DNA of 64,000 bases from Hormiphora californensis. Its lineage: Eukaryota > Animalia > Ctenophora. Where the stretch lies: positions 806,001-870,000 of the forward strand of contig CM035356.1 of NCBI GenBank assembly GCA_020137815.1, read 5' to 3'. Numbering within the stretch: position 1 is the first letter of the stretch; each line of letters starts with the position of its first letter. Made by a program: the position numbers and the translations under genes. The notes under the pieces were generated by a model that saw only the letters and a list, made by a program, of their open reading frames with translations, ran no database searches and was not told where the DNA came from. Below are positions 20,801 to 23,800 of this stretch, in pieces.

Positions 20801-23800
20801 GTGCAGTTGAATACTAACTAGTAACTATCCCACATTTTAGTAGACCCCCAGCAGCCCATCATACCATGGTTAAAGTTTCACTATTCCTAATATTCCTCCT
20901 ACTTCTCCTTCCCTCCTCCCAAACTCGTTCCATGCCTCGTGGTGATGCTGCCCTGAGTGAGTCGTTCTTCTTCAAACCTAAGGATGCAGATGGCCCACAA
21001 TTTGATCCAGATCAGTCGAATAAGGGGGAAGGATATTCAGAGAGACGGGTAGTGAAGATAAGTGCCGAGATAACTGTGACGGAGGGAGTGAATGATAGGA
21101 ACTAATAATAGTGTGTGATTATTAGTTAGAGTTTCTGTAGATTGGTAGCGATTAGTTGAGATTGTTGTGCAATGTGTAAATTAGTTTTTCATTTGGTTTC
21201 CCTGTGGGAAAGATGGTTCTTGTTATTTGGTTATTCACAATCATTACAGCCGCAGTATCAGCTTCTGATGATCTTGAAATTTGAAATTCAGGAAAACTAA
21301 AAAATCATCATTCCACATGATTCATTCTGTGGCTCACATCGCATTTCTGTGAGGATTCAGTAGATTCGTTCAATCAACGCTTCAACAGTCCGTACATAAT
21401 ATTTGAATTGTTCATACTTTCTTTCACGGTCACAGTGTCAGGCGACTCAACATAATATCACATATAGGAACAAGATAGATAGTATCTTCACTCGCTGCAT
21501 TCTCACGTTTCTCTCTTTTTTCTCACACAACACGCCCTACTGTACAACAGTGAAGGGGAAACATACAGCGGGCAGATCTCAGGGTGGAAGGGTCATTTGT
21601 TAATTATTATAATGAGATCTGATCAGGATTAAATAGGGAGGAAACTAGAAAAATATCTGGCGAGGGCCGGGCTCGAACCGACAACCTCTGCATTACATGT
21701 ACATTGCTCTAACCTATTGAGCTACCTCGCCTACAAAATAGGGAGGAAACTAGAAAAATTTAATCCTGATCAGATCTCATTATAATAATTAACAAATGAC
21801 CCTTCCACCCTGAGATCTGCCCGCTGTATGTTTCCCCTTCACTGTTGTACAGTAGGGCGTGTTGTGTGAGAAAAGAGAGAAACGTGAGAATGCAGCGAGT
21901 GAAGATACTATCTATCTTGTTCCTATATGAGTTACAGCTGCAATATCTAAGGGCATGATCAGTGATATAGAGAGAGGAAATGTAGATAAATTGTAGGCGA
22001 GGTAGCTCAATAGGTTAGAGCAATGTACATGTAATGCAGAGGTTGTCGGTTCGAGCCCGGCCCTCGCCAGATATTTTTCTAGTTTCCTCCCTATTTAATC
22101 CTGATCAGATCTCATTATAATAATTAACAAATGACCCTTCCACCCTGAGATCTGCCCGCTGTATGTTTCCCCTTCACTGTTGTACAGTAGGGCGTGTTGT
22201 GTGAGAAAAGAGAGAAACGTGAGAATGCAGCGAGTGAAGATACTATCTATCTTGTTCCTATATGAGTTACAGCTGCAATATCTAAGGGCATGATCAGTGA
22301 TATAGAGAGAGGAAATGTAGATAAATTGTAGGCGAGGTAGCTCAATAGGTTAGAGCAATGTACATGTAATGCAGAGGTTGTCGGTTCGAGCCCGGCCCTC
22401 GCCAGATATTTTTCTAGTTTCCTCCCTATTTAATCCTGATCAGATCTCATTATAATAATATCACATAGTATCAGTATCTTGTCAAGTGCAGTAGGGTGAT
22501 CAAATGTACCCCATAGTACAATTATTTGACCTACAACTATTGTACTGCATACAAGCTGTTTCATGTTTCATGTTAGTTTACATTGTTTTGTTTTCAGAAA
22601 GAGACGGAGGGAGGGAAAAAGAAGGCGATACAGATTATTGACCCGAAGCGTGCACAGGTGGGTTAAGATAGAAATGCTCCATATGCTGTGACAGCATTGC
22701 TGTCCCAGTGACAGTGATAGTGACAGGATGCGAGAGACATAATAGCATGTCAAGTACCATTGGTACTACCAGTGTGAACAGTAGAACACTCATGACAAAA
22801 GTTTTATCTGTATGATCAGTCACGGACAAAATTTCCTCTATTATTTCTATGTCTTATTTTTAACCCATGTTCCCGCTACAGAACCTGACTATTCTGCTGT
22901 CGAAGATCAAGAAGAGTAATGATGAGCTGATTGATATTATATTTAGCTGCGACAAACAGAATCTTATCACAGTGGACATGTGGGAACAGGTACTGCTATA
23001 CCAGACATAGTAGTTTGGGGTGTACTTTACGTAAGTCGCATCTTTGTTGATTTATTGTCTTGTACGTGGTCGGTCATTGTCAACAGTTGGGTCAAAACGT
23101 CTCATGTAAGGGGGAATTATATTGGTATAAGCTTGTAAAGTATCTTATGGAACATTTTAAGAGCCTCTTGGAACACGGTCAAAGCAACAAATAACAGAAT
23201 ATAAGGAAACCACCATCTCCGATCCTATCAACTCCGCTCCCAGTTGGGGAGACCCCTGAACAAATGGTAATCATTTCAACCATGATAGAGCAACAGTTCA
23301 AGGAGCTAAAGGGGTTCGTTGAAAGTGAGACTAGGTGGCTGAAAAATGAGATAGCCAAACAGGTAAAGAAGGTTCGTTACGTTGCAGTTCGTTTCACTTT
23401 TGCTTGTCTCAGACACCAATAAGGGCTCTTCCTCTCACTAAAATGCAACTTAAATCCGTCTCAAATACCCATTTCTAGCACACATGAACTCCCAGTTACC
23501 ACTGAACTGTCTCTCGGGCCTGGCCTAGTCTCATCACTAAATTACAGCTACATTCTTGGCCAATATTACCCACCGCCCCACCCCCACCCGCCCTACCCCA
23601 CCCACCTCTCCCTATATAGCGGACATTGCTATACACCACACTTATCGCTTATCGCGTGTAACAACTAACAATTGTTCTTATCTGTCCCATCTGCATAGTA
23701 TTCTAGAACATTTTACAGCATATTGGTGCTACATTCAGTCCTACCCCTTATTTGTGTTCAATCGTTTTTGTTTATCTTCATCTCTGATCCACTGGAAATG

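What the first reader, a model, noticed from the sequence alone, without database searches (positions are those of the whole stretch)
21760..22460. The monomer folds into a closed, viroid-like structure with compensatory changes between families A and B
Seen, in tRNA sense: the 5' leader and 3' trailer extend the acceptor stem (GAGGAAA/TTTCCTC, then TGATCAG/CTGATCA in A versus TGTTCAG/CTGAACA in B, a compensatory A-T to T-A swap). This stem meets GATCTCA/TGAGATC and TGCCC/GGGCA in a three-way junction that only closes in a circular or multimeric molecule. GCAGC/GCTGC and AAGAT/ATCTT stems are kept while their loops diverge. G-U pairs favour the tRNA-sense strand. Inference: selection acts on the structure of the whole monomer RNA, not just the tRNA. 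Tension: a T5 Pol III terminator follows the tRNA, so full-length RNA needs read-through or another promoter.
Basis: partly seen in the sequence, partly recalled or inferred. Interest (0 to 1): 0.8.

Follow-up and report, generated by a model that had tools for sequence, protein, structure and literature searches.

The report
Ribozyme-free tRNA-circle retroelement in comb jelly
This ~333-base repeat with a tRNA-like core sits as two fresh, identical-copy insertions in the genome of what is likely a comb jelly, and it likely spreads by reverse transcription of a folded, probably circular RNA that carries no known ribozyme.

Summary
The stems are real, but the fold is not the main story. The window holds two insertions of a 335/332-nt tRNA-bearing unit: family A (21452-22467, about 3 units) and family B (27295-37363, about 30 units with a noisy middle). 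Each is flanked by a 13- or 12-bp target-site duplication and has two arms whose tRNA sense points outward, the signature of twin-primed reverse transcription. Site A is empty in another individual's run. Breakpoints recur at the same monomer positions. The host is likely a Pleurobrachia-like comb jelly.

Structure: the leader-trailer helix is predicted in both families, and A/B differences avoid paired sites (11/146 vs 26/115). But there is only one compensatory pair against 8 broken, the three-way junction is predicted only in A, all helices also form in a linear monomer, and G-U counts do not pick a strand. No known ribozyme was found. Low-depth RNA contigs cross the T5 terminator; DNA carry-over is not excluded.

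Best reading: a retrozyme-like non-autonomous retroelement copied from a likely circular RNA, with a tRNA mimic in place of the hammerhead. Circularity is not shown.

The parts
21452..21464 (+). Left target-site duplication of insertion A (ATAATATCACATA, 13 bp); last 4 nt also match the element (microhomology at the inferred second priming site)
   Evidence: site empty in run X2
21461..21736 (-). Inverted arm of insertion A: monomer positions 331 to 335, then 1 to 269, tRNA sense pointing left
21736..21759 (-). Short inverted piece (monomer 78-101) at the inversion junction, likely a template jump
21758..22459 (+). Direct arm of insertion A: 2.1 identical 335-nt units, monomer 98 to 129
22455..22467 (+). 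Right target-site duplication of insertion A; first 5 nt also match the AU-rich loop of the monomer (inferred first priming site)
21996..22069 (+). tRNA-like core (also 22331-22404 + and 21658-21731 -): intact acceptor, D and T arms, Pol III A box TAGCTCAATAGG and B box GTTCGAGCC; decayed anticodon arm without U33
22074..22078 (+). T5 run, a potential Pol III terminator, 4 nt after the tRNA in every unit of both families
22071..22107 (+). Trailer strand of the predicted extension helix (monomer 76-112); A>G letters at 22097/22098 in two RNA runs
21956..21994 (+). Leader strand of the predicted extension helix (monomer 296-334); compensatory pair 21958/22105
21814..21862 (+). 49-nt block identical in families A and B (also 22149-22197); candidate RT-binding or catalytic motif, untested
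   Evidence: no variant rows in this block in runs X2, X9
21892..21941 (+). GCAGC/GCTGC and AAGAT/ATCTT nested stems; 3' side (monomer 262-269) holds the second recurring insertion end
21403..21450 (.). Separate 48-bp dispersed repeat with its own 8-bp duplication (CATAATAT) at nearly the same nick site; also absent from X2's allele
   Evidence: (loose ends at 21403 and 21450 in X1, X2, X9)
27295..27306 (+). Left target-site duplication of insertion B (AGTATAAGGTGA, 12 bp)
27305..37277 (-). Long arm of insertion B: about 30 units of 332 nt, monomer 77 to 262; readable units identical; about 28090-32920 is a noisy assembly of the same array
37277..37352 (+). Short inverted arm of insertion B (monomer 54-129)
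37352..37363 (+). Right target-site duplication of insertion B

Best explanation
This is a non-coding ~333-nt repeat present as two TSD-flanked, internally identical multimer insertions, likely a non-autonomous retroelement whose structured, probably circular tRNA-sense RNA is copied into the genome by a borrowed reverse transcriptase. SHOWN: unit anatomy; TSDs; outward-pointing arms; an empty site in another individual; recurring ends; intact A/B boxes; a decayed anticodon arm; no ORF longer than 84 codons; no known ribozyme. INFERRED, step by step. (1) Pol III starts at the tRNA's internal promoter in an array and sometimes reads through the T5, giving more than one unit of RNA. (2) The tRNA mimic (acceptor, D and T arms kept, anticodon arm free to drift) is recognised by host tRNA-processing enzymes. 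A cut just 3' of the tRNA in two successive units (RNase Z-type) would give a unit-length RNA whose ends the leader-trailer helix holds together for ligation into a circle. The tRNA mimic would thus do the job that the hammerhead does in retrozymes. (3) A host retrotransposon endonuclease/RT, most plausibly Penelope-like, nicks an AT-rich target (C^A[T/G][A/T]ATA at both sites). It primes in the open AU-rich loop at monomer ~125-129, primes again from the other strand at ~262-269, and rolls round the template for up to ~30 turns. The two cDNAs join head to head, and cDNA often ends at the base of the tRNA acceptor stem. Odds: RNA-mediated insertion about 0.9; circular template about 0.55; tRNA-enzyme processing as the route to the circle about 0.3.
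For: TSDs of 13 and 12 bp abut both ends of both insertions; 30 of 20,000 random 45-nt window pairs share 12 or more bases. tRNA sense points outward on both arms of both insertions, with 1-5 nt microhomology at all 4 outer ends, as twin priming predicts (PMC13174262, passages). Run X2 joins 21384 to 22455 and 21358 to 22465 (depths 240.1 + 84.8, equal to the flank's 324.9), and X9 joins 21303 to 22455: the site is empty there. Both insertions end at monomer 129 on the right and at 269/262 on the left. Loose ends with unrelated flanks cluster behind monomer 120-121 (12 contigs in X2, 13 in X9) and behind 264 (3 and 1). Inner ends fall at 78 (A), 77 (B, same base) and 331 (A), and a fold-back RNA contig joins 332 to 76 (X16). 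12 of 12 complete units of B in 33038-37021 are identical, while A and B differ by 15%. 6 of 8 A/B differences in the tRNA lie in the anticodon arm, and all 8 substitution rows inside the tRNA lie there. RNA contigs bridge the T5 in 2 of 3 RNA runs laid (X10 22004-22230; X16 21992-22129), and the third (X17) covers ~150 nt beyond it. Penelope-like Naiads occur in ctenophores and make tandem/inverted insertions (PMC8557442, passages).
Against: No circular RNA was observed; contigs cannot show it, and the fold forms equally in linear RNA. Identical units could also come from array expansion after insertion or from assembly polishing; the middle 4.8 kb of B is unreadable, so its copy number is uncertain. 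RNA contigs have depth 2.5-6.6 in metatranscriptomes and no silent control stretch was laid, so DNA carry-over of a high-copy repeat is not excluded. Only one compensatory pair, against 8-10 broken pairs. cDNA ends at 76-78 fit an RT stall at the acceptor stem as well as an RNase Z end. A paired leader and trailer might block RNase P/Z rather than attract them (inference). No partner RT was found among 99 of 140 ORFs scanned in the window, and no whole genome was held. The source-like run X1 has only one listed contig over the right junction, with fewer than 31 element bases, so it does not formally bridge it.
Confidence: 0.55

Rival explanations
1. A tRNA-derived SINE-like element that retrotransposes from linear RNA. 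Multimers arise from read-through transcripts of existing arrays or from unequal crossing-over after insertion, as in the TSD-(SINE)n-TSD arrays of bivalves. No circle is involved.
For: Intact A and B boxes. Many short dispersed copies end near monomer 121-129 inside unique flanks (9 listed contigs in X2 and X9), like 5'-truncated SINE copies with a fixed 3' end. All helices form in linear RNA. TSD1-(SINE)n-TSD1 arrays of 4-15 units and palindromes are described in a clam (PMC11481361, passages). The cDNA end at 331 fits a Pol III start site.
Against: The tRNA lies ~55 nt before the fixed 3' end, not at the head of a long body, and a T5 follows it in every unit. About 200 nt beyond that end is carried in both insertions, holds the most conserved block and pairs back across the tRNA. 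A 30-mer linear Pol III transcript would have to pass 30 terminators. No poly(A) or microsatellite tail is seen at either insertion end.
Confidence: 0.3
2. A true viroid-like RNA replicon of comb jellies that copies itself RNA-to-RNA with a host polymerase and is only occasionally reverse-transcribed into the genome.
For: Viroid size, no ORF over 84 codons, both polarities fold below shuffles (z -1.8 to -3.3), distinct families in two species and in marine RNA runs.
Against: Very high DNA depth over the unit in host DNA runs (200,000-400,000 at conserved parts vs 400-500 in flanks for X2; the tool warns this is not a copy number), very low RNA depth, DNA-level Pol III boxes, no ribozyme in either polarity, no match in viral contigs.
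Confidence: 0.07
3. An ordinary tRNA gene array or satellite, or a long-read fold-back/concatemer artefact; the stems are chance or by-products.
For: ARAGORN and Rfam call tRNAs (56.5 and 52.3 bits). The middle of array B is badly assembled. Covariation is a single pair.
Against: U33 is replaced and the anticodon arm differs between families. TSDs flank both loci and site A is empty in X2. Short-read DNA runs of two organisms hold the unit and the same end hot spots.
Confidence: 0.08

Closest known systems
Metazoan non-LTR retrozymes (PMC7229834, section 13 and passages read; bioRxiv 10.64898/2026.07.22.740005, first fifth read)
   Same: Non-coding tandem units of a few hundred bp (150-450), dimers to many-mers (up to 62), GC below 50%, TSDs longer than 4 bp, predicted self-paired fold, proposed circular RNA and mobilisation by Penelope-like elements.
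   Different: Retrozymes are defined by a type I hammerhead in each unit. None was found here; each unit instead carries a complete tRNA-like fold with Pol III boxes. Circular RNA is shown for retrozymes and not for this element.
tRNA-derived SINEs and SINE tandem arrays (bivalve TSD1-(SINE)n-TSD1 arrays, PMC11481361; squamate SINE-derived satellites, PMC10702118; passages read)
   Same: tRNA-derived A/B boxes, TSDs in the 6-18 bp range, truncated dispersed copies with a fixed 3' end, tandem and palindromic arrays.
   Different: The tRNA is not a 5' head before a body and tail, and it is followed at once by T5. There is no poly(A) or microsatellite tail. The acceptor stem is intact, and leader and trailer pair across the unit boundary. 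The array reaches about 30 identical units with an inverted arm in one TSD pair.
Penelope-like elements, Naiad clade (PMC8557442, passages read)
   Same: Partial tandems with an adjacent inverted truncated copy; present in ctenophores; lack canonical hammerheads.
   Different: This element encodes no RT or GIY-YIG endonuclease; no shared sequence with a PLE could be tested (no genome held).
Viroids and viroid-like circular RNAs; mascRNA/menRNA tRNA mimics (both recalled, not tested against a paper here)
   Same: Size and lack of coding (viroids); a tRNA-like fold with a degenerate anticodon arm that could be a substrate for RNase P/Z (mascRNA).
   Different: Genome-encoded at high copy with TPRT marks; no replication shown; mascRNA is a single-copy part of a Pol II lncRNA, not a mobile repeat.

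Membership tests
Non-LTR retrozyme | Type I hammerhead ribozyme in each repeat unit | tested here: not met
   Rfam scan of 21300-28300 (dimers of A and B, both strands) to E=10 gave only tRNA above gathering and no ribozyme family among 21 matches; recalled core-motif scan found no hammerhead core in either strand
Non-LTR retrozyme | Non-coding tandem units of 150-450 bp with TSDs longer than 4 bp | tested here: met
   335/332-nt units, 13/12-bp TSDs, longest stop-free stretch 84 codons
Non-LTR retrozyme | Abundant circular RNA in vivo | not testable with these tools
   Only assembled contigs of metatranscriptomes, depth 2.5-6.6
tRNA-derived SINE | [quoted passage not shown] | tested here: met
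   TAGCTCAATAGG and GTTCGAGCC in both families; box consensus recalled
tRNA-derived SINE | tRNA head at the 5' end, then a body and a poly(A) or microsatellite 3' tail | tested here: not met
   Insertions end ~55 nt after the tRNA or at monomer 262-269, carry whole permuted units, show T5 right after the tRNA and no added tail
tRNA-derived SINE | 3' end shared with a partner LINE | not testable with these tools
   No genome held; no RT among 99 of 140 ORFs scanned
Functional tRNA gene array | Conserved anticodon arm with U33 and a stable anticodon | tested here: not met
   Position 33 is A in family A and G in family B; stem mismatches; all 8 substitution rows inside the tRNA fall in this arm
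Viroid / viroid-like replicon | RNA-to-RNA replication with minus-strand multimers, without a DNA stage | not testable with these tools
   Contigs show no strand; high DNA depth in host runs argues for a DNA stage
Viroid / viroid-like replicon | Strongly self-paired closed fold with covariation support | tested here: inconclusive
   z -1.8 to -3.3, 59-66% paired; 1 compensatory pair, only two full sequences

The most novel reading that the evidence does not exclude
A ribozyme-free class of RNA-circle retroelement: a tRNA mimic serves both as the Pol III promoter and as the handle by which host tRNA-processing enzymes cut and close a unit-length circle, which a Penelope-like RT then copies into the genome by rolling-circle, twin-primed reverse transcription. 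The invariant 49-nt block could be the RT-binding signal or an undescribed self-cleaving motif.
Probability: 0.3. Interest if true: 0.88.

Novelty: new variant of a known kind. Interest (0 to 1): 0.68.

Why it matters
Known animal RNA-circle retroelements depend on a hammerhead ribozyme and are found by searching for it. A family with the same genomic behaviour but a tRNA mimic instead would be missed by those screens and mis-annotated as tRNA genes (18 calls in this window alone). It would link SINEs, retrozymes and satellite birth in one currently mobile element of an early-branching animal lineage. Polymorphic insertions with recurring priming sites make rolling-circle reverse transcription of a circular RNA, and the partner RT, directly testable.

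Tried and rejected
Whole genome: none held, so no copy census, no further full-length families and no partner search. Relatives in public contigs: the conserved block gave 1 hit in metagenome contigs, a chance match inside a bacterial-looking gene, and 0 in viral contigs. A tRNA 3' motif gave 0 in prokaryote genomes and 9 viral loci, 8 with ordinary tRNA calls of mixed type, uninformative about origin. Covariation across more families could not be tested: the read-laying tool gives per-site letters without linkage. One pair of changes in X9 (21971 A>T at 97% of depth, 22090 C>A at 42%) would turn a mismatch at monomer 95/311 into a pair, but linkage is unknown. Known ribozymes: none. Endless or rolling-circle ORF: 13-24 stops per three turns in all four strands. 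A pseudoknot between the pyrimidine loop of the conserved block and the purine tract was not the best duplex in either family. G-U strand argument rejected. Tubulin search showed only 'animal'. Runs X16-X20 hold only 23-29% of words; only X16 and X17 were laid; X18-X20 count as no evidence. Earlier-findings look-ups returned nothing. Ten literature searches (listings and abstract starts seen) showed no description of such an element in ctenophores. The library lacks most subscription papers, and repeat libraries (Dfam, Repbase) and supplements were not seen, so it may be catalogued as an unnamed repeat.

Full report
WHAT IS THERE. A 335-nt unit (family A) occurs as 2.1 identical copies at 21758-22459, preceded by an inverted arm at 21461-21736 and a 24-nt inverted piece at 21736-21759. 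A 332-nt relative (family B, 85% identical) forms one array from 27305 to 37277 on the minus strand, with a 76-nt inverted arm to 37352. Its middle (about 28090-32920) is noisy but enriched for array 7-mers (0.099 vs 0.027-0.028 in flanks), so the array is about 30 units; 12 of 12 complete units in 33038-37021 are identical. Each unit holds one tRNA-like sequence (18 ARAGORN calls; Rfam 56.5 and 52.3 bits). The host is an animal (alpha-tubulin), likely a comb jelly: the best of 2 homologues of the ORF at 19153-19701 is 82% identical and comes from Pleurobrachia bachei. No whole genome was held.

CHECK OF THE OBSERVATION. The leader-trailer helix that extends the acceptor stem is predicted in both families (P 0.94-1.0), the U-A to A-U swap is real, and GCAGC/GCTGC and AAGAT/ATCTT are kept while loops differ. 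Differences between A and B avoid paired sites: 11 of 146 vs 26 of 115 on A's fold (p=5e-4, rotation null 0.008) and 15 of 160 vs 20 of 99 on B's (p=0.012, 0.019), with the caveat that AU-rich loops may mutate faster. Four claims fail. There is one compensatory pair against 8 (or 10) broken ones. The three-way junction is predicted in A (0.91, 0.78) but not in B, which prefers other partners (0.80, 0.90). All helices form equally in 4 of 4 linear unit-length permutations, so the fold does not need a circle or multimer. G-U counts do not pick a strand (A 6 vs 10, B 13 vs 8). Folding z-scores are -1.8 to -3.3.

INSERTION ANATOMY. Both loci are flanked by exact duplications: 13 bp (21452-21464, 22455-22467) and 12 bp (27295-27306, 37352-37363); 30 of 20,000 random window pairs share as much. 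In both, tRNA sense points outward on both arms and all four outer ends overlap the duplication by 1-5 nt. This is the pattern of twin priming, where two reverse transcriptions start from opposite ends of the target break (PMC13174262, passages), and it fixes the template as tRNA-sense RNA (inference). Run X2, another sample of the same organism label, joins across locus A in both listed alleles, and run X9 (another organism) also skips it, so the insertion is polymorphic or recent. A separate 48-bp dispersed repeat sits at nearly the same nick with its own 8-bp duplication and is absent from X2 too. The two empty targets both begin C^A(T/G)(A/T)ATA (n=2).

RECURRING ENDS. Both insertions end at monomer 129 on one side and 269 or 262 on the other; both regions are predicted mostly unpaired (0.65-0.92). 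In short-read contigs, loose ends with unrelated flanks cluster behind monomer 120-121 (12 contigs in X2, 13 in X9) and 264 (3 and 1); 139 further loose-end rows were not shown. The alignment stops at 121 partly because B-type copies diverge from the A reference there, but the loose parts are long and disagree (agreement 0.51), so these copies end soon after. Inner ends fall next to the acceptor stem: 78 and 331 in A, the equivalent of 78 in B, and 332 joined to 76 in an RNA contig of X16. Two other inner ends (98 in A, 54 in B) do not. These ends fit either real RNA 5' ends (a Pol III start near -5 and an RNase Z cut at 75) or RT stalls; I cannot separate the two.

THE tRNA IS A MIMIC. A and B boxes are intact. 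The anticodon arm is not: U33 is replaced in both families, 6 of 8 A/B differences in the tRNA lie in this arm, and all 8 substitution rows inside the tRNA do too, with none in the acceptor or T arm. It is unlikely to decode. Keeping the acceptor stem, which a promoter does not need, suggests selection on the RNA shape that RNase P, RNase Z and similar enzymes read (inference from recalled tRNA biology). A 49-nt block outside the tRNA is identical in A and B and shows no variant row in X2 or X9. No Rfam ribozyme matched to E=10, no recalled hammerhead core was found, and no frame stays open beyond 84 codons.

RNA EVIDENCE. Of 6 RNA runs listed as holders, 3 were laid. X10 (227 nt, 22004-22230) and X16 (21992-22129) bridge the T5; X17 covers about 150 nt beyond it; X16 also holds a B-like variant. 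Depths are 2.5-6.6, these are metatranscriptomes, no silent control was laid, and the repeat is very deep in DNA, so carry-over is not excluded. X16 and X17 show A>G at 22097 and 22098, absent from X2 and X9 at 1% and not among X1's listed kinds of change at 5%; X10 lacks it. Ctenophores have ADARs that mainly edit repeats (PMC9989829, passages), so this may be editing in the extension helix, which would support both strand and stem. A population allele is equally possible.

MECHANISM AND RIVALS. The best reading is a non-autonomous retroelement whose structured unit-length RNA, probably circular, is copied by rolling-circle twin-primed reverse transcription (0.55). The case for the circle is the long run of identical permuted units inside one TSD pair, with a terminator in every unit. 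The main rival is a SINE-like element with linear multimeric templates or later array expansion (0.3); such TSD-(SINE)n-TSD arrays are described in a clam (PMC11481361, passages). A self-replicating viroid-like RNA (0.07) or a tRNA array, satellite or artefact (0.08) fit worse. The partner enzyme is unknown: no RT among 99 of 140 ORFs scanned. Penelope-like elements are the best guess, because they occur in ctenophores, make tandem/inverted insertions (PMC8557442, passages) and are linked to animal retrozymes (bioRxiv 10.64898/2026.07.22.740005, first fifth).

COMPARISON AND NOVELTY. It works like a metazoan non-LTR retrozyme (PMC7229834, section 13 and passages) but fails the defining hammerhead test, and it fails the head-body-tail layout of a SINE. 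Ten literature searches and three look-ups of earlier findings showed no description; repeat databases and supplements were not seen. I rate it a new variant of a known kind, interest 0.68. It would be close to a new class if the circle and its tRNA-enzyme processing are shown.

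Noticed in passing
window 21403-21450: A 48-bp dispersed repeat with sharp ends (loose ends at 21403 and 21450 in X1, X2, X9), flanked by an 8-bp duplication at nearly the same nick as insertion A; possibly mobilised by the same enzyme. Only one copy in the window.
   Followed up: partly
window 22097-22098: A>G at two adjacent adenosines in RNA runs X16 and X17 but not in DNA runs X2 and X9; possible A-to-I editing in the extension helix, or a population allele.
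   Followed up: partly
window 22230 and 21895 (monomer 235): RNA contigs from two studies (X10, X17) both stop at monomer position 235, inside GCAGC; a weak, unexplained hint.
   Followed up: no
window 19153-19701 (+) and 15108-15524 (-): Two small ORFs with repeated (A/G)FF(F/M)KP-like motifs near basic residues, resembling secreted peptide precursors (recalled pattern); the first has an 82% identical Pleurobrachia bachei homologue and no Pfam match.
   Followed up: partly
window 16517-17911 (-): Alpha-tubulin gene with an apparently uninterrupted reading frame.
   Followed up: partly
window 39625-53696 (-): Exons of a glycosyl hydrolase family 47 (alpha-mannosidase-like) gene, with 187-bp and 97-bp repeats in its introns (43541-46352, 49478-49665).
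   Followed up: no
window 28090-32920: About 4.8 kb of low-quality, homopolymer-rich assembly inside array B; ORFs and repeats called there are artefacts.
   Followed up: yes
window 4103-6961 (+): A 952-codon open frame with 33-bp and 18-bp coding tandem repeats and no Pfam match.
   Followed up: no
window 37364-37394: The flank right of B's duplication loosely resembles the reverse complement of the 48-bp repeat at both ends; may be chance (BLAST found no match between them).
   Followed up: partly
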